A stretch of DNA of 12,539 nt from a virus (Duplodnaviria > Heunggongvirae > Uroviricota > Caudoviricetes). The notes beneath the pieces were generated by a model that saw only the letters and a list, made by a program, of their open reading frames with translations, was not told the origin of the DNA and ran no database searches. The position numbers and the translations under genes were made by a program. This document shows, one piece after another, positions 2,215 to 12,539 of the stretch (position 1 is its first letter; each line of letters begins with the position of its first letter). The stretch lies in the IMG/VR virus record IMGVR_UViG_2529293139_000012; one strand, given 5' to 3'.

Positions 2215-2502
2215 TTACCGCCGCAGCCGTTCCGGCTTCTTCCACTGGTAAGTATTTTTCGCGCTCTCCCTCCGTTGTTGAGAACGGCGACGGTATGCCA
2301 GCAACTCAAGGACTCTTGTTCGTATGTTGCGCATATCCACGCCGTTAAGCTCAATACCGTCACGGAGCATCACCTCAGCCACCACACGCGCGTAATTTTC
2401 AGCGGTGACTGTATCCGGCTGCGCGGCCTGTTCGTCAGCCAACTGGCTGATTCCACCAGCACAGCGGATTAATCGCAGTATTTCAGATTCGGTCATTATC
2501 AT
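2215..2502 (-). CDS. Hypothetical protein (95 aa), translationally coupled to the small terminase gene
   Basis: Its ATG overlaps the TGA stop of the upstream gene in an ATGA arrangement at 2499-2502. No recognisable motif. Confidence 0.5.
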   Translation of the reverse strand: MIMTESEILRLIRCAGGISQLADEQAAQPDTVTAENYARVVAEVMLRDGIELNGVDMRNIRTRVLELLAYRRRSQQRRESAKNTYQWKKPERLRR

Positions 2503-2984
2503 GCCTGTTTTGCGACCTCATTCACTACGTCATTTTTTACCATCCGGCTGATAATCTGATTACGCAAATCGTCAATAATTGACTGCACTCTGTTTACTGC
2601 CATCGGTTTAAGCCCGGCATCACGTGCCAGAATATTGGGGAGTTTTGCCAGTTCCTCGCTTACGATTTCCCCCCATATAGCCATCTCTTTTCGCACATCA
2701 TCGGCGGGTATGAGTTGCGCCGTTTCCTGTTCGAACCTGAGGCGCTCACGTTCGGACTGATACCAGGCCTTACGGTCATGTGGCTCCATTTCTTCCAGTG
2801 ATGCCGGAACGGGAAGATCAAGAAAACAGGTCAGAATGTCAGTCACCCGATAGAGTTTTAGCTTGTCATGCCCTCCGGCTGGCTGGATGTTTTTCAGCCT
2901 TGCCGCCGCAGTCTGACGACATATTCCCGCTATCGCCGCCAGTTGATTAATGTTCAGCATCAGATTTTTCAGTTCTCGATCCAT
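2499..2984 (-). CDS. Nu1-like terminase small subunit (possible Rpp-type packaging-redirection protein)
   Basis: Start taken at ATG 2982-2984 (MDRELKNL) with GGAG Shine-Dalgarno 7 nt upstream; the longer ORF-track form from 3071 lacks a ribosome binding site. N-terminal HTH 'LNINQLAAIAGICRQTAAARL' followed by a GG..K..LY motif parallels lambda Nu1 (VNKKQLADIFGASIRTIQNW...GGGKG..LY) as recalled. Confidence 0.7.
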   Translation of the reverse strand: MDRELKNLMLNINQLAAIAGICRQTAAARLKNIQPAGGHDKLKLYRVTDILTCFLDLPVPASLEEMEPHDRKAWYQSERERLRFEQETAQLIPADDVRKEMAIWGEIVSEELAKLPNILARDAGLKPMAVNRVQSIIDDLRNQIISRMVKNDVVNEVAKQA

Positions 2985-3137: not shown

Positions 3138-3220
3138 ATGAAAATGCAAAAACTAGCTTTTTCCGCGCCGTTCCCGCCCCGTGGCAGGCCACCTCACCGG
3201 GAGGACCCACCCAAAAAAGG
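3138..3220. repeat. Copy 1 of a GC-rich ~75-80 bp conserved non-coding element, upstream of the small terminase operon
   Basis: Near-identical to 6487-6560 (ATGAAAATGCAAAAAC.AGC.TTTTTCCGCGCCGTTCCCGCCCCGTGGCAGG.CAC..CACCGGGAGGACCCA). The plus-strand ORFs over the two copies share nucleotides but diverge in frame after about 5 codons, so the conservation is not protein-coding. Confidence 0.75.
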
Positions 3221-3254
3221 CGACTGTCACTATTGTTTATGCTCCATGAGCGAC

Positions 3255-3276
3255 AAAACCGCCCGCAGGCGGTTTT
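3255..3276. terminator. Bidirectional rho-independent terminator downstream of the gpI-like gene
   Basis: AAAA-CCGCC-cgca-GGCGG-TTTT: perfect 5 bp GC stem flanked by A4 and T4. Confidence 0.6.
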
Positions 3277-3293
3277 ACATAAAACGTTTTGTA

Positions 3294-3965
3294 TCAGCGA
3301 CCAATCACCACAATCTGGCCGCCATCCCCTTCATCTGCCGTGCTGATCTCTTGCGAAATCACCCGCGACCCGACGCGCATTTCACCGTACAGAACAGGCA
3401 GAACATTGCCCTGGGCAACCATGTTATCCAGTGAGGAGAAATAGGTGTTCTGCTTACCGTTATCCGTTGTCTGTGTACGGGGAGTTCTGGCTTTCGGTGC
3501 CAGCATCTGCGCCACACCACCGAGCACCATACTGGCACCGAGAGAAAACAGGATGCCGGTCATACCACCGGCCCCAATGGCTGCCCCCCATGCTGCAAGG
3601 GTGGCTCCGGCGGTAAAGAATGATCCGGCAATGGCGGCAGCCCCCAGGACAATCTGGAATACGCCACCTAACTTGGCCCCGGCGACTCTGGGAACAATAT
3701 GAATCACAGCGCCATCAGGCAGAGTCTCATGTAACTGCGCCGTTAACCCGGACGTGCTGACGTCCCGCCCGGCAATCCGTACCTGATACCAGCCGTCGCT
3801 CAGTTTCTGACGAAACGCCGGGAGCTGTGTGGCCAGTGCCCGGATGGCTTCAGCCCCCGTTTTCACACGAAGGTCGATGCGGCGACCAAATCGTTGTAAA
3901 TCCCCGTAAAGGCAGATGCGTGCCATGCCCGGTGACGCCAGAGGGAGTGTGTGCGTCGCTGCCAT
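3294..3965 (-). CDS. Lambda gpI-like tail assembly protein (223 aa)
   Basis: Intact ORF with purine-rich stretch upstream of the ATG. N-terminal 'MAATHTLPLASPGMARICLYGDLQRFGRRIDLRVKTGAEAIRALA', a Gly/Ala-rich hydrophobic middle and C-terminal '...VVIGR' match my recollection of lambda tail assembly protein I. It is flanked by a capsid gene and a terminator rather than K and J homologs. Confidence 0.65.
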   Translation of the reverse strand: MAATHTLPLASPGMARICLYGDLQRFGRRIDLRVKTGAEAIRALATQLPAFRQKLSDGWYQVRIAGRDVSTSGLTAQLHETLPDGAVIHIVPRVAGAKLGGVFQIVLGAAAIAGSFFTAGATLAAWGAAIGAGGMTGILFSLGASMVLGGVAQMLAPKARTPRTQTTDNGKQNTYFSSLDNMVAQGNVLPVLYGEMRVGSRVISQEISTADEGDGGQIVVIGR

Positions 3966-4054
3966 TTGTCGGTATACCTCTCTCGTTTGCTCAGTTGTTC
4001 AGGAATATGGTGCGGCAGCTCGCCGCCCCACGTGTTCAAAGTACCGCCTTGTTG

Positions 4055-5968
4055 TCATGCTCCATTCGATTTCAGCAATCCACGATAATCGAGGGCCGCG
4101 ACACCTGCATCTATGCGCACCTTCCAGGCGACACCATCAACAGTAAAGCCCACCTGCTCCTCAAGATATGGCGTATCCATACCATCAAGATAAGCGACTT
4201 CTATTGTGTCCATCCCCTTAGCTGCGGCTACATACCATTCCTTGCTATTGGCCTTATCAAGACGTGGCTCAACAATTACTTCTGCCATATCTTTCACAAC
4301 GTTAATGATGCCGGGGTTCTGATTGATAGTGCCCTCATCACCAACCGGAAAGACTGATGACGATGACAGAATGGCGCGACGCGCGGCAGATTCCAGCGCG
4401 GCAGGGACCAGAACAAAAGCAGGGGTAATATTCAGTGAGTCGCCGTTAGCATCCTCCTGGAGGCGCATCAGCTTACGGGCTTCATCAAGCCCCACCATGT
4501 CCATATCCTTCGCAATAAGATTTTTATGATCGGCATGGAATAACGCTTTACCATCCGTAAACTTGCCGTTGCTGGTTAACAGGAGATAAACCAGATTGCC
4601 AACTGTTCTGGCGGCTGCGCGTCCCATCGCCATGGGGATTGTAGTTAACTGGGTCAGGTCATCGTTGATAATGGCCTGACGGGTAACGGAGAAAATATTC
4701 CCGTACGTGGCCAGCGCAATAGGTACACCTTTATCGCTGGTGGTGATGTATTTATATTCCGCACCTTCCGGTACTTTATCCAGCTTTGAAAAACCATTCA
4801 GACCAACGCGCTTTGCTTCATGAAAGTTTGAAAGCGAACCGGTACGCGTCCATTTCTGGAACGTTTCGCCGCTGTCCTGCCAGCCTTTCAGTACAGATTT
4901 TTCAGCCCCACCAGCCAGAATATGAGAAAAATCACTGCTGCTGTGTGTAAAAGCCGCATTAACAACCTGCGAGCGATTAATAAAACCACTCACAGTGATA
5001 CCACGATCAACCAGTGATGCCTGGGCCATTTCAAAAAGGCTCATCATCGCGTAAGGGTTGCCTCGTTCAGGGCGTTCATACCCAAGACGGGAATAAAGCC
5101 CCTGACGAATTGCATCACCTGTTATGTTTCCGTTTCCGGCATAGATATGAGCCGGGGTATTTTTATTGGATGGCGTGGACTCGCGCCCCAGCTCGTTCAA
5201 CAGCTTTTCACGGGCCATTTCCGGTGTACATGATGCATCTTCCAGACACGCCATTTTGATCCCGTCGTAACGACTGCCGAACAGGCTAAACACTTCACTT
5301 ATTCCATTGATGCGTTTCTGTTCATTACCAGCAATATTTGCCGCTCCCTGTGGCGGTGTAATCATTCCTTTAATGGTTTCCGGCATATGTAAAAAATCTC
5401 CTGTGCGCTTCGATTCAATTCGCGCCATTGCTCTGACGGATGGCAACAATTCATCAGCAAAACCGTGCTTAAGGCATTCTTTCCCGTCCATCCAGGTTTC
5501 ATCTTCCAGCATGGCGGTAATTTCCTGTGCTGATTTGCCCGTTTTTCTGGCATAAGCAGGGACTAACACGGTTTCCACCTTATCCAGCAAATCAGCATAA
5601 TCACGCATATCACCAGCATTTCCGCCAGAGATACCCCACGGCTTATGTATCATCATCATGGCGTTTTCCGGCATCACAACACGATCGCCAGCCATTGCGA
5701 CCACCGAAGCCATTGAAGCCGCAACACCATCGATATAAACCGTAATGTCTGCCGGATGATTCCGTAGCAGGTTATAGATGGCGATGCCTTCAAACACATC
5801 ACCACCTGGTGAATGGATCCTCAGATTGATATGTGAAACATCGCCAAGGGCTTTCAGGTCTTCCGCGAACTGCTTTGCAGTAACACCGAAGCCGCCAATC
5901 TCCTCATAGATAGATATATCCGCCGCTCCGCGAACATCCGCCGCCTTAATGGTGTACCAGCGATTCAT
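4055..5968 (-). CDS. Fusion of ClpP-like (S14) prohead protease with a major-capsid-like domain (637 aa)
   Basis: N-terminal ~200 aa carry ClpP-type motifs (IYEEIGGFG, HSPGGDVFEGIAIYNLL, IDGVAASMASVVAMAGDRVVMPENAMMMIHKPW). The remaining ~430 aa look like a phage major capsid domain, possibly Mu gpT-like; the family cannot be fixed without a search. Confidence 0.75.
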   Translation of the reverse strand: MNRWYTIKAADVRGAADISIYEEIGGFGVTAKQFAEDLKALGDVSHINLRIHSPGGDVFEGIAIYNLLRNHPADITVYIDGVAASMASVVAMAGDRVVMPENAMMMIHKPWGISGGNAGDMRDYADLLDKVETVLVPAYARKTGKSAQEITAMLEDETWMDGKECLKHGFADELLPSVRAMARIESKRTGDFLHMPETIKGMITPPQGAANIAGNEQKRINGISEVFSLFGSRYDGIKMACLEDASCTPEMAREKLLNELGRESTPSNKNTPAHIYAGNGNITGDAIRQGLYSRLGYERPERGNPYAMMSLFEMAQASLVDRGITVSGFINRSQVVNAAFTHSSSDFSHILAGGAEKSVLKGWQDSGETFQKWTRTGSLSNFHEAKRVGLNGFSKLDKVPEGAEYKYITTSDKGVPIALATYGNIFSVTRQAIINDDLTQLTTIPMAMGRAAARTVGNLVYLLLTSNGKFTDGKALFHADHKNLIAKDMDMVGLDEARKLMRLQEDANGDSLNITPAFVLVPAALESAARRAILSSSSVFPVGDEGTINQNPGIINVVKDMAEVIVEPRLDKANSKEWYVAAAKGMDTIEVAYLDGMDTPYLEEQVGFTVDGVAWKVRIDAGVAALDYRGLLKSNGA

Positions 5969-6273: not shown

Positions 6274-6299
6274 CACAAAAAAGCCGGAGAAAATCCGGC
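6274..6299 (-). terminator. Rho-independent terminator on the minus strand, upstream of the capsid operon
   Basis: GCCGGA-gaaaa-TCCGGC hairpin followed on the minus strand by TTTTTTGTGT. Confidence 0.65.
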
Positions 6300-6486
6300 A
6301 TAAATATCCCGCCATCTGAACACGTTTTGACACAGGCAACTCCACCTGGCAGGTGAAAAACAGATTTATTTATATATTTCAATTAATTGCAAACTGGTCT
6401 AATGACAGGGAGAAAAAAATATTGTACAGGTGAAAACAGAAATAACTTTTAATTATCAATAAATTATCACACATGCTGCCGCCGCC

Positions 6487-6560
6487 ATGAAAATGCAAAA
6501 ACCAGCCTTTTTCCGCGCCGTTCCCGCCCCGTGGCAGGTCACTACACCGGGAGGACCCAT
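6487..6560. repeat. Copy 2 of the GC-rich conserved non-coding element, upstream of the capsid operon
   Basis: Aligns with 3138-3220 over about 75 nt with a handful of substitutions and a 1 nt indel. Confidence 0.75.
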
Positions 6561-6582
6561 AAAAAAGCCGGATTGCTCCGGC
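6561..6582 (-). terminator. Rho-independent terminator on the minus strand, between the putative ori and repeat copy 2
   Basis: GCCGGA-ttgc-TCCGGC hairpin followed on the minus strand by T6. Confidence 0.6.
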
Positions 6583-6713
6583 TTCTGTTACTCGTTGCTT
6601 AAAACGGTATGTTATCCCCGTACGGATCATCATTCCCCGCCTGTTGTTTTGGTGTGCTTCGCTGTCATAGGCTTTATCTCACAGCAGTAAATTAAAATTT
6701 TTGCGTTTTAACC

Positions 6714-6941
6714 CTTCACCTGTTCACCTTTTGATATTTTCTCTTTTAATTCATAATGTTAAGGGGTGAGCAGTTTCACAAAAACTATTCACCAACTGTT
6801 CACCACTGTTCACCCTTGAAGCTCAATAAACAATCAAAAAGGTGAACAGTGAATAGTTTGGTGAACAGTTCATAAATAACTGTTCACCCTATAATATACT
6901 GATATAAAAGATATTTATGACAGGGTGAACAGTGGTGAACA
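6714..6941. repeat. Iteron cluster, putative replication origin
   Basis: At least nine copies of the 8-mer GGTGAACA / TGTTCACC in both orientations (6721, 6797, 6807, 6841, 6860, 6881, 6924, 6934, plus degenerate copies) flanking an AT-rich core (ctgatataaaagatatttatga), directly 3' of the primase-helicase gene. Related CAGGTGAAAA(A)CAG motifs at 6350 and 6427. Confidence 0.65.
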
Positions 6942-6955
6942 GTTATTCCATAAGT

Positions 6956-8731
6956 TTAATTTTTGCTATCGTCATTAGTGACCGATACACATGATGGCAT
7001 CCAGTCTTCTGATTCCTCCGTCAGTGTCACGTTTGAACGCAAACCGTGCTTCGTTTTCCGTTTCATATACTCCCTGCCATATTCCGCCATTGCCCCCGGC
7101 ATATCTTTACCGAAGCGCGTCAGTGTTACAGGTTTACCAAACCCATGTGCCCTCATATAAGCCAGATAGGCATGATAGAGATACCTGCGTGGGCTGAATG
7201 GCACAATTTCAGCATTACCCACTAACAGGCCATCACACATTACCGACGCCATGAGATAGCCGCAGAAGTCCACCAGCGAATCCCCCTCTCGCTTTATCGC
7301 CAGTGCTTCTTCAGATTTCTGCTGCTCATATAACAGGCGTCTGGCTTCGTCCTGGTCAGCAAACCGTGTAAGCAGATGGCGAATCACTACCGCCAGCTCA
7401 CCTTCTATTTTTTCCGCCAGCATTGGATCGCGTTCGTTCTCCGGTACAACTTCCGAAAAATTGAATATCACCCGACGACGTGAGATCCCCCCGCTGCGGT
7501 CACTGAATGACATGGCGTTATTGTTAACCGCCAGCACTACTGCCGGAATACGCGTTGAGTAGGGGGCTTTGTGTTTCGGATCAATTGCCACCTTGTCACC
7601 GCCTGTAATGGCCTTAATTCCTGCCCCATCACCAGCGTAGCGGGTCATATCCGGCATGATAATCAGCGAAAAGCCAACCACTAACGCGCGTTCCCTTGCA
7701 TCTTCCAGCGCCTTCATGCTTGCCGATACTGTGTTGGCCTTACCCGCCAGCATGGTGCAAATCTCCGCCATCACGCTTTTACCACTTCCCCCTGGACCTG
7801 TTACCTCAATGAATAACTGCCAGTCGTACCGGTTCGCCAGCACCATGAATAATGCAGCCAGTACGCGATCCGCCTTGCGGTCATTCTCAGCCACCGAACG
7901 GCGTAACCACTTCCAGAAATTCGGCGCATGTGTTGCCAGCGTTTCCCCCTCTGCTGGTGGGCTGAAAGGTAATTCACTGGCAATTAACAACCAGTCGTTT
8001 TTGTTATGCTCCCGAAAATTACCTGTTCTGGTATCAAATACCCCGTTACTGAATCCAATCAGGTTACGGGCTGTATTCCCCATAACAGGCAAACTTAACT
8101 TCATGGTATCGACCGCCGATTTAATGGCGTTCTGCGAATAGCTGATCTCCGCATCAATGAAAATCTGTGCCATAGCTCGCTGTAATTCTTTATCCTGTAC
8201 TGGCTCCCATACAACGCCGTTGTAATGGTGAACAGTGTCAGAGTCAGCATGAATCGCCAGTTCACCGCCATAATGTGCCAGGAGAACTTCGCCGCGTTGA
8301 CTTGCTCCCATCTGGTTAAGCGCCAGTGATGAAGCGTTATCGTCTTTTACCCGCTCTTTTTTCTTTACAGGCAGTTCAACTACCTTTTTCTTTTCCGCCA
8401 GCTCTGCCCGTTCACGTTCCAGATATTCGCGCCAGTTCTCCCGTTTCTGGCTGTGCATTCCTTCAGGGTAATAATCAGCATCCCTGACACCTGCCTCTGC
8501 CAGTTTCTGCCCGATGGTATTAACAAGCCCCGGACGCAATAACCCCGCCTGATAGAGACGCACGCGATAGCGTCCGTCCGGTACGATTTGCAGGTTGTCC
8601 AGTTCGGCAAGTTGTTGCTCTCCAAGCCAGACAGGTGGCACGTTATCGCCAGCCAGTCGCCCGTCCTGTTCCTGCCACTGATTCGCATGTGCCCACGCAT
8701 CACTACCCGCAAAAATGATGACTTCCGTCAT
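6956..8731 (-). CDS. Phage/plasmid primase P4-family C-terminal domain helicase (D5-like NTPase), putative replication initiator Pri-Rep (591 aa)
   Basis: Walker A 'VTGPGGSGKS' with the surrounding D5_N-like region (NFWKWLRR...YDWQLFIEVTGPGGSGKSV...VIFNF); the gene is followed immediately by the iteron cluster. Confidence 0.8.
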   Translation of the reverse strand: MTEVIIFAGSDAWAHANQWQEQDGRLAGDNVPPVWLGEQQLAELDNLQIVPDGRYRVRLYQAGLLRPGLVNTIGQKLAEAGVRDADYYPEGMHSQKRENWREYLERERAELAEKKKVVELPVKKKERVKDDNASSLALNQMGASQRGEVLLAHYGGELAIHADSDTVHHYNGVVWEPVQDKELQRAMAQIFIDAEISYSQNAIKSAVDTMKLSLPVMGNTARNLIGFSNGVFDTRTGNFREHNKNDWLLIASELPFSPPAEGETLATHAPNFWKWLRRSVAENDRKADRVLAALFMVLANRYDWQLFIEVTGPGGSGKSVMAEICTMLAGKANTVSASMKALEDARERALVVGFSLIIMPDMTRYAGDGAGIKAITGGDKVAIDPKHKAPYSTRIPAVVLAVNNNAMSFSDRSGGISRRRVIFNFSEVVPENERDPMLAEKIEGELAVVIRHLLTRFADQDEARRLLYEQQKSEEALAIKREGDSLVDFCGYLMASVMCDGLLVGNAEIVPFSPRRYLYHAYLAYMRAHGFGKPVTLTRFGKDMPGAMAEYGREYMKRKTKHGLRSNVTLTEESEDWMPSCVSVTNDDSKN

Positions 8732-8770: not shown

Positions 8771-9064
8771 TCATTTCTGCTCTCTCCACGCGGCAATCAT
8801 GTTTTTCAGTTCCTGTAGTTTTTTATCCACACGTGACACATGGTTATTTCTGGAAGTCGGGATTTCCCGCCGGAATCTGCAAATAAAGATCTCCACGTTC
8901 AGCGAACTAAGAAATGAATATCCATCACGGATAAAATAAACACGGTCAAACATCAGTTCTTTTACCGTTACTCTGTTACCGTTCTTATCCAGATAAATAG
9001 CGCCGGGGATAATTTTGGGGTGTGCATAACCGCTGGCAGTCAAGCCAGATAAATATGTTCTCAT
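8771..9064 (-). CDS. Hypothetical protein (97 aa)
   Basis: ORF in the co-oriented gene string upstream of the primase-helicase gene; no recognisable motif. Confidence 0.4.
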   Translation of the reverse strand: MRTYLSGLTASGYAHPKIIPGAIYLDKNGNRVTVKELMFDRVYFIRDGYSFLSSLNVEIFICRFRREIPTSRNNHVSRVDKKLQELKNMIAAWREQK

Positions 9065-9587: not shown

Positions 9588-9688
9588 AGCTACCTCGATA
9601 CTATCGTTATCGTTGGTGGTTAGAAGCCCGGTTAGTGTTCCCGCACTACCGGGCTTCGCTGTATTTAATGGTTGCGTATTTTTAATGC

Positions 9689-10055: not shown

Positions 10056-10265
10056 TTACACCGTCTGCGTTCTGCGAGTGGATGCAAGATAAGCATCGAG
10101 ATCAGTGCGCATATACAGCACTTTGCGACCAAGCTTATGGAAAGGGATTTTTACCTTGCCAGTACACGCCCAGTTCGCCAGTGTTTGATTGTTAACGCCA
10201 AGGTAGGCAGCAGCTTCAGCACGTGTAAGGCGGTCAGTTGATAAATCAGATTTCTTTAAATTCAT
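10056..10265 (-). CDS. AlpA/excisionase-family HTH DNA-binding protein (about 69 aa)
   Basis: Start taken at ATG 10263-10265 (MNLKKSDL); the ORF-track form starts 3 codons earlier at a GTG. HTH 'LTRAEAAAYLGVNNQTLANWACTGKVKIPFHKLGRKVLYMRTDLDAYL' has the Xis/AlpA architecture. Confidence 0.6.
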   Translation of the reverse strand: MNLKKSDLSTDRLTRAEAAAYLGVNNQTLANWACTGKVKIPFHKLGRKVLYMRTDLDAYLASTRRTQTV

Positions 10266-10407
10266 ATCTATCACCGTGTACGTCTAAGTAACAACGGTGA
10301 TAAATATCAATCAATGAGTATTTTGTTTTTAGCCCAATAGCCAGTTGCTGTGGGGCTGTTACCAGTTATTTAGCCTCAATAGCCAGCTATTAAAATACCG
10401 TAGCCAG

Positions 10408-11133
10408 CTATTGGGGGTGAACAAGCTCAAACGAAGAGTATTTATCAGGCTTTGGTGGTTGTGCCCCTGATTCTTTAATCCATCTATCTAGCGTGTTTTT
10501 ACTTACTTTCCCATGGTAGTAAACAGAAAGCTCGTTCAATAAACCTGTTTTACTGGCTTTAGGGTACTTTTCCCATGTTAGTTTAATTACGTGCATAACT
10601 TCATTGTAATAATGATTTCTTGGTTTGCGCGCTTTTTCTTTCTGTGATAAGGATAAAGCATCCTTTATTTTTTTATCTTTTTCATGGTTCGATATAATTT
10701 CTTCAAAAAAATCATTAAGCAATAACTCAACACCAACTCTAGTAAGTTTGTCTGCGTGATTACGCATTCCGACATGGTACAATGCAACTGCTGAATTTAA
10801 AGTATCGACAACCTGACAAGATAGTTTACTATCAAATATTAAAAAACCACACGAATCAATTTTTGCAGCTAATTCAATAGGATATTGCTCGATTTCACTT
10901 GATTCTAAACCATAACACAAAAGAAATTCTCTTGTTGGATATTTTGATTTATAAAAATAATCTCTTATATCATCAATCAAGCGTTTTATAGCCTCTATGG
11001 TGGAGTTTCTCGGGGATAAAGATACAGGAACGTTTAAAACTGAAGATTCTCGCCCACCAGTAATTAAATCATTCATAACCGAATAAATAATATATTGTTT
11101 GACCGATATATTGTTATCATCCATATATGTCAT
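10408..11133 (-). CDS. AT-rich hypothetical protein (241 aa), candidate accessory/cargo gene
   Basis: ORF overlapping the integrase 3' end by 17 nt. Visibly much more AT-rich than the island genes on either side, with Lys/Asn/Ile/Tyr-rich codon usage. No recognisable catalytic motif; the C-terminus (KNTLDRWIKESG) may be HTH-like. Confidence 0.55.
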   Translation of the reverse strand: MTYMDDNNISVKQYIIYSVMNDLITGGRESSVLNVPVSLSPRNSTIEAIKRLIDDIRDYFYKSKYPTREFLLCYGLESSEIEQYPIELAAKIDSCGFLIFDSKLSCQVVDTLNSAVALYHVGMRNHADKLTRVGVELLLNDFFEEIISNHEKDKKIKDALSLSQKEKARKPRNHYYNEVMHVIKLTWEKYPKASKTGLLNELSVYYHGKVSKNTLDRWIKESGAQPPKPDKYSSFELVHPQ

Positions 11134-12539
11134 TCTTTTCTTGTACTATAGCAAATAGTAAACGACGTTTTTCATCATCACTCATGCCCTCCAGTGCGGA
11201 AAGCAATTGCGCATCGATAGATTTTTTACTCTCCACCAGCCCGGCATGTTCCTGAATTGCCCGTTCTATCCGTGACGCTGGCTCCAGCAATTCATCAGCA
11301 CCAAAATGTAAATACCCCTGCGTTACGTCAGCACTTCGCATAGTACGGTGATTCATCAGGCGCTTGAGGATGTAATTGCCCACGCCCACCAGTTCGGCAA
11401 CCGTTCCGAACGTCCGGCGCGCATCGTGCCATTTGAATGGTACAGGGGAGAGCATTTCATCGTTCGACTCTGAAACGGTAGCCGCGCTTATCCGGTCTAT
11501 GATGTGCCGTGTCTCCTGAATAACGCCCTTCACACCAGGAAACACCAGCACATCATCAGCAGCTTTGTTTTTTAGCCTGCGAAGAAACATTTTCCGCAAC
11601 GTATCAGTGATCGGCAGTTCAAGCGGATCCCCGTTTTTCGTGGTGTCTATCCAGAAAAAAACGACCGCCCATATTCACGCGATCCCACGTAAGGCCAAAA
11701 ATTTCTGATTTCCTCAGTCCGGTAAAAAGCGCCATTTCCACGGCATCGCATACCGTCACCGCTATATCATCCCTTTCCTGTTCGCCCTGGTCGCGCACAG
11801 CAGCTACAGCAGCAAACCAGCGGGGAAAATCATGCAGGCGGATACGTTCCGTTTTTCTTACCGTTCCGTGCCACTGGCGCTTGGTGCTCAGTACCAGAGT
11901 CGGCGGATCCGGTAAAAGAGTATTACCCGCATCATCACGGTAATGATCATGCGCAAACCGACACACAGCACGTAGCGCACGCGCCCATAAATCGGCCTGT
12001 GCCTTGCTTCCTGTACCAACCCCAGCCCGTAACGTGGTTTTATCAGCACCGAACCATACAGCCCCATCAGTGATGGCCTTATGCCGTTGTTCCACCCGTT
12101 CGCGGGAAATACTGGCGAGGGTATGGGCCATCCAGTCACCGGAATAATTCTGTAATATGCTGCGGTACTGTTTTTCTGTGGCGGGTTTCAGGCGGTGGCC
12201 ACGATTTTTTACGTAGGCGTCAATCGCCTCACTCAGCGTTATCATGGCCTTGTTGTTAGTGCGCTTTGCTATGTTCGGATTTATCCCCGTTGTGGCGACT
12301 TCGCCAAGGAGTTCCATAGCTTTAGCCCTGGCATTATCCACGCTCAGATCAGGAAAACGCCCCAGCGTTGCACGAATAAATTTTCCGTTACGCTTACGGG
12401 AAATGCAGAAACTTTTCACACCAGACGAACCTACACGGACACGCAGCCCGTTAACCTCCGTATCACCATATTCGACCTGTCCATGTTCCGGCGTTGGCAG
12501 TTCTGCAATTTTTACTTTAGAGAATCTGAATAATTTCAC
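11117..12539 (-). pseudogene. Tyrosine site-specific integrase (P4-like family), interrupted by a frameshift in an A7 run at 11655-11661; N-terminus runs off the window
   Basis: The 306-aa upstream frame carries the first Arg box (TGLRKSEIFGLTWDRV); the 160-aa downstream frame carries HDARRTF and the catalytic Tyr region (RSADVTQGY). Removing one base from the homopolymer joins them as ...GRFFWIDTTKNGDPLELPITDTLRKMFLRRLK.... Confidence 0.85.

What the first reader, a model, noticed from the sequence alone, without database searches (positions are those of the whole stretch)
3294..3965. Lambda gpI-like tail assembly gene stranded in a satellite
In lambdoid phages gene I sits between K and J in the tail-tip assembly cluster. 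Here a gpI-like ORF stands alone between the capsid fusion gene and a terminator, with no K or J homolog nearby. It could be a tool for interfering with, or redirecting, helper tail-tip assembly, or a recombination scar.
Basis: partly seen in the sequence, partly recalled or inferred. Interest (0 to 1): 0.7.

Follow-up and report, generated by a model that had tools for sequence, protein, structure and literature searches.

The report
Lambda tail gene I captured by satellite
A small E. coli phage satellite carries an intact copy of phage lambda's tail-tip gene I, picked up once with a stub of the neighbouring gene K; this is an unusual but explicable case of a satellite capturing a helper-phage gene, with no sign that it is a new weapon.

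Summary
The ORF is real. Window 3294-3965 (-) encodes 223 aa, 219/223 identical to lambda gpI and 97.6% identical in DNA. It belongs to a ~790-bp lambdoid patch (window 3241-4025 = lambda 14713-15497). The patch holds the last 53 codons of K (overlapping I), I with its RBS, and the I-J intergenic hairpin. It stops just before J.

The patch sits inside what is, in I-less sister islands, the intrinsic terminator behind the ClpP-protease/capsid fusion gene of a ~10.8-kb tRNA-Ile2 PICI-type satellite. The junctions are the same in 23 of 74 related islands among 5,426 complete E. coli genomes, so there was one capture. It then spread across capsid backgrounds, integrases and attachment sites.

All 21 copies examined are intact but mosaic. 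The last ~100 nt of I are private to the islands (nearest prophage 91.7%). The interior is lambda-like here and a private 213-aa allele elsewhere. dN/dS (~0.1) equals phage-phage values.

Best reading: a captured, assembly-competent gpI read through from the capsid unit, redundant with the helper's copy and exchanging sequence with prophage alleles. Nothing supports a specialised interference role. [quoted passage not shown]

The parts
3294..3965 (-). Gene I: lambda-type tail tip protein gpI, 223 aa, intact. Codons ~1-190 are lambda-like (4 mismatches in 566 nt). The last ~106 nt are an island-private allele (12 mismatches to lambda).
3863..4039 (-). K' remnant: the 3' end of lambdoid gene K (C40 peptidase), 51/53 aa identical to gpK 147-199, with the N-terminal ~146 residues missing. 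It overlaps the start of I as in lambda. PGAP calls 3863-4024 a pseudogene. 4026-4043 is of uncertain origin (diverged K or filler).
3241..4025 (-). The whole captured lambdoid patch, equal to lambda 14713-15497 (K 3' end, I, I-J intergenic region). It is absent from sister islands L004 and L005.
3976..3980 (-). Ribosome-binding site of I (GAGGT), retained from the phage. This is the position annotated as RBS in phage 21.
3255..3276 (-). Lambda I-J intergenic hairpin (AAAACCGCC-TGC-GGGCGGTTTT). It is annotated 'terminator' in phage 21 and now ends the capsid-I transcription unit.
4057..4065 (-). ATGGAGCAT, the last codons of the capsid gene. This is the left copy of the 9-nt direct repeat that flanks the insert. 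Lambda has ATGGAGC at the matching place, in the J RBS region.
3239..3247 (-). ATGGAGCAT, the right copy of the repeat. This is the right junction, where lambda homology ends (microhomology).
3211..3222 (-). CGCCTTTTTTGG: the surviving 3' arm and T-run of the island's native terminator. In I-less islands this is GGGCGGCGATAGCCGCCTTTTTTT directly after the capsid stop.
4055..5968 (-). ClpP-like prohead protease/major capsid fusion gene, the upstream cistron of the same transcription unit. It is only 56-57% aa identical to lambdoid phages (mEp213, mEp043, mEp460, VT1-Sakai), so it is an old acquisition, unlike I.
2499..2984 (-). DUF1441 / PHROG 141 terminase-small-subunit-like gene, the next late-zone unit downstream of the insert. 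It has a promoter-like site at 3089-3060.

Best explanation
The ORF is a genuine lambda-family gene I. Its product, gpI, is the trimeric tail-tip plug and putative outer-membrane-inserting protein seen in the lambda tail tip.

Shown: about 790 bp of a lambdoid tail operon was captured once by illegitimate, microhomology-type recombination. The fragment comprises the K 3' stub, I with its RBS, and the I-J hairpin. It landed in the terminator behind the protease-capsid gene of a tRNA-Ile2-integrating Gram-negative PICI. The insert then spread by homologous recombination into other island backgrounds. It keeps exchanging sequence with I alleles of lambdoid prophages, while the reading frame stays intact.

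Inferred: the insertion destroys the 5' arm of the native terminator, and no promoter-like site precedes I. So I is probably expressed as the distal cistron of the island's capsid unit after induction. It would yield ordinary, assembly-competent gpI that enters the helper's J-I-L-K tail-tip pathway. There it acts as a second supply that is redundant with the helper's own copy.

Its fitness effect is probably small: neutral to mildly useful as a backup. It is not a specialised interference device.
For: Identity:
- 219/223 aa and 97.6% nt identical to lambda I, over the full length, with the RBS retained.
- The K' stub is 51/53 identical to gpK 147-199.
- The patch ends at lambda 14713 and 15497.

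Insertion site:
- I-less sister islands have an intact hairpin terminator exactly where the patch sits.
- An ATGGAGCAT repeat flanks the insert.

One capture:
- The capsid|K' junction is >=99% identical in 23 genomes, out of 74 that carry this capsid 3' end.
- The same junction occurs in 6 IMG/VR contigs.
- It is present at both the ileX and ileY sites and with different integrases, including a 10,790-bp circular excised copy.
- The cassette plus at least 33 nt of flank is shared across capsid haplotypes that differ by 3.5%.

Maintenance and exchange:
- 21/21 copies are intact.
- There are at least 4 mosaic allele forms.
- dN/dS between island and phage alleles is 0.08-0.13, equal to the phage-phage values.

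Expression context: no promoter-like site lies on the minus strand between the capsid gene and I.

Literature:
- gpI is a stoichiometric tail-tip component, three copies per virion (PMC11101478, PMC12617516).
- The late zones of Gram-negative PICIs are known to capture helper late genes (PMC10111431).
Against: - No expression or protein data exist. Read-through from the capsid gene is inferred from sequence only.
- A redundant gene should decay, yet the 3' end of the island's I (156 nt) is found at >=97% only in the 23 islands; the best of >9,000 prophage copies is 91.7%.
- The 213-aa allele's middle segment is found at >=99% only in 14 islands; the nearest prophage copies are 94.5% and ~91%, and the best isolated phages match the whole cassette (691 nt) at 85-87%.
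- This 'private' allele, still intact at low dN/dS, could mean long-term selection on the island, i.e. more than redundancy. It could equally reflect an unsampled donor.
- Within-island polymorphism is too sparse to decide: in the 213-aa class, 2 non-synonymous against 6 synonymous singletons outside recombination tracts.
- No I-less island with the same capsid 3' haplotype was found. That could hint that the I-bearing form replaced its ancestor.
Confidence: 0.6

Rival explanations
1. Selected 'own tail-tip part'. The satellite keeps its own gpI under purifying selection because it raises satellite transfer. Possible routes are relief of a limiting step in tail-tip initiation when the island replicates to high copy, rescue of helpers or defective prophages with a damaged I, or supply of a plug/ejection protein suited to satellite particles.
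For: - The island-private 3' end and the private 213-aa allele are still intact, with dN/dS ~0.1.
- 21/21 copies are intact.
- The cassette has spread into several island backgrounds, integrases and hosts on several continents, and is in 23 of 74 islands.
- No I-less island with the cassette-linked capsid haplotype was sampled.
- gpI is structural: three copies per tail (PMC11101478).
Against: - The window's own copy is lambda-like over 85% of its length, so no particular satellite-specific sequence is required.
- Two thirds of related islands do without I.
- Low dN/dS can be inherited from phage donors and from gene conversion.
- Resident prophages in the island genomes that could be examined have intact I genes.
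- Knock-outs of other captured late genes (the PICI capsid gene) had no effect on transfer (PMC6092414, as cited in PMC10111431).
Confidence: 0.22
2. Pure passenger. The fragment is a neutral scar of illegitimate recombination with a co-replicating lambdoid phage, is not usefully expressed, and persists by drift, hitch-hiking and repair through gene conversion from prophage copies.
For: - The ends are ragged and leave a useless K stub.
- There was a single origin.
- Conversion tracts from prophage alleles are frequent.
- The lambda hairpin is carried along.
- Most related islands lack the cassette.
Against: - The RBS and full ORF are preserved in all 21 copies.
- The insertion destroys the upstream terminator, so read-through transcription is likely.
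- The private regions, which conversion from sampled prophages cannot explain, are also intact and have mostly synonymous differences.
Confidence: 0.13
3. Interference or defence device. Mis-timed or over-dosed gpI, or a dominant-negative allele, poisons the tail-tip assembly of the helper or of competing lambdoid phages, by analogy with the PICI-encoded Tai tail-assembly inhibitors.
For: - PICIs do encode tail-assembly inhibitors (PMC11364771).
- The 213-aa allele differs from lambda-type gpI in the hydrophobic helices and the plug region while keeping the J-binding C-terminus.
- A replicating island would raise the dosage of I.
Against: - The satellite itself needs helper tails.
- The window's protein is 98% lambda gpI.
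- Alleles are interchangeable with phage alleles.
- No defence-model hit was found, although PADLOC-DB predates Tai.
- No promoter-like site was found that would allow expression in the uninduced state.
- Escape mutants suggest Tai acts on J, and Tai is encoded next to pri, not in the late zone.
Confidence: 0.05

Closest known systems
Phage lambda gene I / gpI (tail tip assembly protein I; Pfam PF06805; PDB 8IYK, 8IYL, 8K35, 8XCG, 9E7M)
   Same: Same length (223 aa), 219/223 identical, same RBS. The same overlap with the end of K and the same downstream hairpin are kept.
   Different: It is not in a tail operon. There is no functional K, no J, and no L, M or H nearby. It lies in a 10.8-kb satellite behind a capsid gene. 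Its last ~35 codons belong to an allele not seen in any sampled phage or prophage.
Late-gene capture in the 'Late zone' of Gram-negative PICIs (Williams lab, PMC10111431), including the tRNA-Ile2 PICI genotype with a CLP_protease gene
   Same: Same island type: tRNA-Ile2 site, ClpP-type capsid gene, no AlpA-family hit in the Pfam scan of nine window ORFs (the 72-aa HTH ORF was not among them and hits an excisionase family instead). Same phenomenon, with helper late DNA captured downstream of the replication zone.
   Different: The captures reported there are mostly capsid genes or long clusters of 5-17 genes in elongated PICIs, at up to 87.5% nt identity. [quoted passage not shown] Here a single tail-tip gene is captured in a normal-sized PICI, with base-pair-resolved junctions and 97-98% identity to lambda.
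Capsid-forming PICIs (cf-PICIs; Alqurainy et al. 2023)
   Same: A satellite that carries phage structural genes and depends on helper tails.
   Different: As described in PMC10085698, cf-PICIs encode a complete head and head-tail adaptor set and no tail genes. This island has only a protease-capsid fusion and a TerS-like gene, plus one tail-tip gene.
Tai tail-assembly-inhibition systems of PICIs, prophages and P4-like satellites (PMC11364771)
   Same: A satellite-borne gene whose product could touch the tail-tip assembly pathway.
   Different: Escape mutants suggest Tai proteins act on J or the tail needle. [quoted passage not shown] Nothing in the paper links them to gene I, and I made no sequence comparison. 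This gene is an ordinary gpI in the late zone, and no inhibitory role is indicated.
Domesticated helper capsid homologues in satellites (SaPIbov5 Ccm; EcCICFT073 c1499; this island's ClpP-MCP fusion)
   Same: A helper structural gene resident in a satellite late operon.
   Different: Those are old, diverged copies (here 56% aa identity to phages), some with a remodelling function. I is near-identical to phage alleles and still recombines with them.

Membership tests
Lambda gpI family (PF06805 / PHROG 32) | N-terminal ubiquitin-like Lambda_tail_I domain | tested here: met
   Pfam PF06805 E=1.2e-28, residues 14-97, 99.8 bits against a cutoff of 23.8
Lambda gpI family (PF06805 / PHROG 32) | Hydrophobic helices H1/H2, a plug, and a C-terminal beta-strand region that sits in the gpJ hub (residues ~101-223 in the solved tail tips) | tested here: met
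   Full-length match to PDB 8IYK chain I, E=3e-140. Residues 133-222 match 9E7M. Only S99L, I164T, V203I and V218I differ from lambda
Lambda gpI family (PF06805 / PHROG 32) | Position in a tail-tip cluster between K and J | tested here: not met
   Only a 53-codon K stub lies upstream. There is no J, and the neighbours are a capsid fusion gene and a TerS-like gene
Lambda gpI family (PF06805 / PHROG 32) | Requirement for, and incorporation into, the tail tip | not testable with these tools
   Needs complementation of a lambda I amber mutant and mass spectrometry of tails
Gram-negative PICI (phage-inducible chromosomal island) | Size ~10-15 kb, with a tyrosine integrase at one end and a specific attachment site | tested here: met
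   tRNA (CAT anticodon, tRNA-Ile2) at 1598-1673, integrase at 11117-12539. Sister islands are 10.7-10.9 kb at ileX or ileY
Gram-negative PICI (phage-inducible chromosomal island) | Own primase/replication gene with an adjacent iteron origin | tested here: met
   D5_N/Pox_D5/DUF5906 primase at 6956-8731. GGTGAACAG iterons at ~6700-6950
Gram-negative PICI (phage-inducible chromosomal island) | AlpA-type regulator/excisionase | tested here: inconclusive
   The 72-aa HTH (10056-10274) hits the excisionase family TIGR01764 at 38.6 bits (cutoff 28.8) and PHROG 66. This ORF was not put through Pfam. The literature notes that this tRNA-Ile2 type lacks alpA (PMC10111431)
Gram-negative PICI (phage-inducible chromosomal island) | Packaging or capsid late genes but no tail or lysis genes | tested here: not met
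   The capsid fusion and TerS-like genes are present, but a tail gene (I) is present too. SatelliteFinder treats tail genes as 'forbidden' in PICI models (PMC10085698). I did not check whether a gpI profile is among them
Gram-negative PICI (phage-inducible chromosomal island) | Excision/circularisation and helper-dependent transfer | tested here: inconclusive
   A 10,790-bp circular record (NZ_CP148328.1) is a free copy of an I-bearing island. Helper dependence and transfer are not testable here
Tai tail-assembly-inhibition systems | Homology to Tai proteins, and location next to pri or in a defence hotspot | not tested
   No Tai sequence was available for comparison. The location does not fit (late zone, not next to pri), and there was no hit in PADLOC-DB v2, which predates Tai

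The most novel reading that the evidence does not exclude
A classical, non-capsid-forming PICI lineage has domesticated a tail structural gene. It keeps a lineage-private gpI under purifying selection and builds it into the tips of the helper-made tails that deliver satellite DNA. At the same time the ~790-bp patch acts as a standing recombination interface with lambdoid helpers. If so, it would be the first such tail-tip contribution by a satellite that I am aware of (nothing comparable turned up in the papers searched), and a class of satellites that current detection rules (tail genes 'forbidden') may discard.
Probability: 0.2. Interest if true: 0.6.

Novelty: new member of a known kind. 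Interest (0 to 1): 0.35.

Why it matters
Satellites are defined, and computationally detected, partly by the absence of tail genes. SatelliteFinder lists tail profiles as forbidden components (PMC10085698). This island lineage is a clean counter-example that such rules may reject, if a gpI profile is among the forbidden tail profiles (not checked).

It also gives a base-pair-resolved snapshot of how a PICI late zone acquires helper DNA. The steps are microhomology-type insertion into a terminator, introgression into sister islands, and repeated allele exchange with prophages.

If the gene proved to be selected, it would show a satellite contributing a part to the tail it steals. If not, it is a useful marker of physical recombination between satellites and lambdoid helpers.

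Tried and rejected
1. Allele matching to the resident helper: rejected. The 213-aa allele's middle is absent (only one place) from the rest of several island-bearing genomes. In the strain with the free circular island, the best chromosomal copy is only 91.3% identical.
2. 'I-less islands arose by deletion between the flanking repeats': rejected. I-less islands have a perfect hairpin terminator, not the chimeric sequence a deletion would leave.
3. Recent capture from a sampled phage: not supported for the 3' end or for the 213-aa allele. No record at >=97% exists outside the 23 islands in 5,426 genomes. The best phage match of the 213-type cassette (691 nt) in INPHARED is 85-87%. IMG/VR exact-pattern hits are islands only.
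4. Occurrence in other species: the junction pattern gave 0 hits in GTDB species representatives.
5. Independent promoter for I, or LexA control: no sigma-70-like site on the minus strand upstream of I, and LexA-box-like matches are not above chance.
6. RNA families: only the tRNA reached threshold.
7. Defence models: no PADLOC hits for I or for the small island ORFs.
8. DUF1441 as the crystallised Rpp: no PDB sequence match. It matches PHROG 141, a terminase small subunit, instead.
9. PGAP's 'internal stop' in DUF1441: explained by a C/T difference at 2764 between the window and the L73 record. The window copy is intact.
10. The HE-PICI paper's supplements contain no mention of Lambda_tail_I or DUF1441.
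11. The exact origin of 4026-4043 and 3223-3238 at the two junctions could not be assigned. They may be diverged K or J sequence, filler, or a diverged island terminator.

Full report
**1. The observation**

The window holds an ATG-to-stop ORF of 223 codons at 3294-3965 on the minus strand.
- It hits Pfam PF06805 (Lambda_tail_I) at E=1.2e-28 and PHROG 32 at 4e-83.
- It hits the PDB chains named 'tail tip assembly protein I' of phage lambda (8IYK, 8IYL, 8K35, 8XCG, 9E7M) at E=3e-140.
- Against lambda gpI it is 219/223 identical; the differences are S99L, I164T, V203I and V218I.
- At DNA level it is 97.6% identical to lambda 14773-15444 over its whole length, and up to 98.2% to other lambda-type phages.

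It is lambda-type gene I itself.

**2. What surrounds it**

The window is an E. coli chromosomal island. Apart from three single-base differences it is identical to strains L73 and PK5074. Reading the minus strand, from high to low window coordinates, the features are:
- a tyrosine integrase
- a 241-aa ORF
- an excisionase-family HTH
- an Icd-like gene
- DUF4222
- a D5-type primase
- GGTGAACAG iterons
- a ClpP-protease/major-capsid fusion gene (4055-5968)
- the I region
- a DUF1441 / PHROG 141 TerS-like gene (2499-2984)
- a 95-aa ORF
- a tRNA with a CAT anticodon, annotated tRNA-Ile (1598-1673)

These assignments rest. The gene order is that of a Gram-negative PICI. It matches the 'tRNA-Ile2 PICI with a CLP_protease gene and no alpA' described in PMC10111431. 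A 10,790-bp circular record, filed as plasmid pZ1323HEC0475-3, is a free copy of such an island, I gene included.

**3. Anatomy of the insert**

Homology to lambda covers window 3241-4025, equal to lambda 14713-15497.
- *Content.* The patch holds the last 163 nt of K, which overlap I as in lambda. The K frame gives 51/53 identity to gpK 147-199, and PGAP calls it a pseudogene. The patch also holds I with its RBS, and the I-J intergenic hairpin that phage 21's record annotates as a terminator. Homology stops about 7 nt before J's start codon.
- *Site.* Sister islands without I (L004, L005) have only 257 bp between the capsid gene and the TerS-like gene. Immediately after the capsid stop they carry a perfect terminator, GGGCGGCGATAGCCGCC followed by T7. 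In the I-bearing form the 5' arm of that hairpin is replaced by the insert, and only CGCCTTTTTTGG survives (3211-3222).
- *Junctions.* The insert is flanked by ATGGAGCAT, at 4057-4065 (the last codons of the capsid gene) and again at 3239-3247. Lambda itself reads ATGGAGC at the matching place. This is what a microhomology-type illegitimate recombination would leave. About 12-18 nt at each junction cannot be assigned.
- *Direction.* I-less islands cannot be deletion derivatives, because they carry the intact hairpin rather than the chimeric sequence.

**4. One capture, then spread**

A 111-nt probe across the capsid|K' junction finds the capsid 3' end in 74 of 5,426 complete genomes. It finds the junction itself, at >=99% identity, in 23 of them. 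The hosts include humans, pigs, chickens, dogs, a goose, a bat and river water, on several continents.
- The same junction occurs in 6 IMG/VR contigs, all the same island, and in none of the GTDB species representatives.
- I-bearing islands sit at both ileX (next to mug) and ileY, and carry different integrases.
- Their capsid genes differ by up to 3.5%. Yet all share the last 33 nt or more of the capsid gene together with the cassette, with breakpoints 34-77 nt upstream. The cassette has therefore introgressed into other island backgrounds by homologous recombination.
- No I-less island with the cassette-linked capsid 3' haplotype was found.

**5. Age and selection**

The island's capsid fusion is only 56-57% identical in protein to lambdoid phages such as mEp213, mEp043, mEp460 and VT1-Sakai. 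It is an old acquisition, whereas I looks phage-like. The detail is more interesting than that.
- *Intactness.* All 21 copies examined (16 from genomes, 5 from IMG/VR) are intact. They fall into a 223-aa lambda-like form (this window), a 213-aa form with a divergent middle covering residues ~68-170, and several chimeras.
- *Private 3' end.* All genome-derived copies share a 3' end (window 3245-3400) found at >=97% identity in exactly the 23 islands. The best of the prophage copies is 91.7%. One IMG/VR copy has had this end converted to a lambda-like sequence.
- *Private middle.* The 213-aa allele's middle is found at >=99% only in 14 island records. The nearest prophage copies are 94.5% and ~91%, and the best isolated phages match the whole 213-type cassette at 85-87%. 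Among those phages, mEp460 and HannyBb also carry the related head gene.
- *This window's copy.* It is a graft. Its first 566 nt are 99.3% lambda-like, and its last 106 nt are 88.7% identical to lambda and island-private.
- *Order of events.* The most parsimonious history is capture of a 213-type allele from an unsampled mEp460-like lambdoid phage, followed by repeated partial overwriting from lambda-type prophages.
- *dN/dS.* Between island and phage alleles it is 0.08-0.13, the same as between phage alleles. Within the 213-aa class, singleton polymorphisms outside obvious conversion tracts are 2 non-synonymous against 6 synonymous. This is suggestive of constraint, but too few sites to decide, and partly importable by recombination.
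- *Allele matching.* The island allele does not match the resident prophage allele.

**6. How it most likely works**

*Shown:*
- the identity of the gene
- its capture site
- its single origin and later spread
- its intactness
- its ongoing recombination with prophage alleles

*From the literature:* gpI is a structural, trimeric part of the lambda tail tip. Its plug closes the tube, its C-terminal strands thread through gpJ, it contacts the C-terminus of gpH, and its two hydrophobic helices may enter the outer membrane on ejection (PMC11101478, PMC12617516).

*Inferred:* the native terminator is disrupted, and no promoter-like site precedes I. I is therefore probably transcribed by read-through from the capsid gene and translated from its own RBS. 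The transcript would end at the imported hairpin. The product should be interchangeable with the helper's gpI and enter the J-I-L-K pathway.

I rate this 'functional but redundant, near-neutral' reading at about 0.6. A genuinely selected role (insurance, or relief of a limiting step) gets about 0.2. A silent passenger gets about 0.13. An interference or defence role gets about 0.05.

The interference idea is weak for four reasons. The satellite needs the tails itself. The protein is 98% lambda gpI. Alleles are freely swapped. And escape mutants point to J as the target of the known PICI tail-assembly inhibitors, which sit elsewhere in the island (PMC11364771).

**7. Comparison with what is known, and novelty**

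Capture of helper late genes into the PICI late zone has been described (PMC10111431). It mostly involves capsid genes or long clusters in elongated islands, with at most ~87% nucleotide identity to prophages. In that study the tail markers tested were found in none of the non-elongated satellite models.

I found no description of a gene I copy in a satellite in the papers searched. The finding is therefore a new, well-resolved member of a known kind of event. It has a practical consequence for satellite detection, and it leaves an open question: is the private allele maintained by selection?

**8. Verdict**

- The 'recombination scar' reading is supported; the 'interference tool' reading is not.
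- Interest is moderate to low (0.35).
- The most novel reading not excluded, a satellite that contributes its own tail-tip protein, has a probability of about 0.2.

Noticed in passing
window 3148-3216 and 6498-6566: A 69-nt direct repeat (86% identical). On the minus strand, each copy lies just downstream of a terminator and upstream of a late-zone unit (the capsid unit and the TerS-like unit). It is G+C-rich and strongly folding, with no Rfam match. It is a candidate late-operon regulatory element of this PICI type.
   Followed up: partly
window 2764, 8771, 11661: The window differs from the L73 and PK5074 records at three sites. At 2764 it has C where L73 has T; L73 therefore has a nonsense codon in the DUF1441/TerS-like gene, while the window copy is intact. 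There is also one extra T in a T-run at 8771 and one extra A in an A-run at 11661. The last splits the integrase into two ORFs in the window (11117-11599 and 11619-12539), whereas L73 has a single 474-aa CDS. This is either a homopolymer sequencing error or a real frameshift.
   Followed up: partly
L006 (NZ_CP148328.1, 1-10790): A record deposited as a 10,790-bp circular plasmid is a complete free copy of an I-bearing island with a different integrase. It is probably the excised, replicating form of the satellite.
   Followed up: partly
window ~6700-6950: About nine copies of the iteron GGTGAACAG(T), in both orientations, lie just downstream of the primase gene. This is the likely replication origin of the island.
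   Followed up: no
L004 7188-7852, L005 7049-7713 versus window ~6290-6950: The two I-less sister islands examined carry an ssb gene plus a small ORF (~950 bp) upstream of the capsid unit. The three fully examined I-bearing islands lack these genes. Total lengths stay close (10.7 against 10.9 kb), which might reflect a packaging-size constraint. The sample is too small to judge.
   Followed up: no
window 9588-9660 (+): A weak SymR-antitoxin-like Rfam match (34.7 bits, gathering threshold 61, E=0.0017) next to the Icd-like gene and the divergent YlcI/YnfO gene. It is below threshold and possibly chance.
   Followed up: no
window 10408-11133 (-): A 241-aa ORF next to the integrase has no Pfam, PHROG, NCBIfam or PADLOC match. 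It sits in the position where PICIs often carry accessory or defence genes, and some relatives carry a HEPN-domain gene in the island instead.
   Followed up: no
phage records ON470618.1 (14,852 bp) and ON470578.1 (16,180 bp): Two short 'phage' records carry a ClpP-capsid fusion 56% identical to the island's. ON470618.1 also carries K-I at one end. They may be satellites or partial phage genomes recovered from virions.
   Followed up: no
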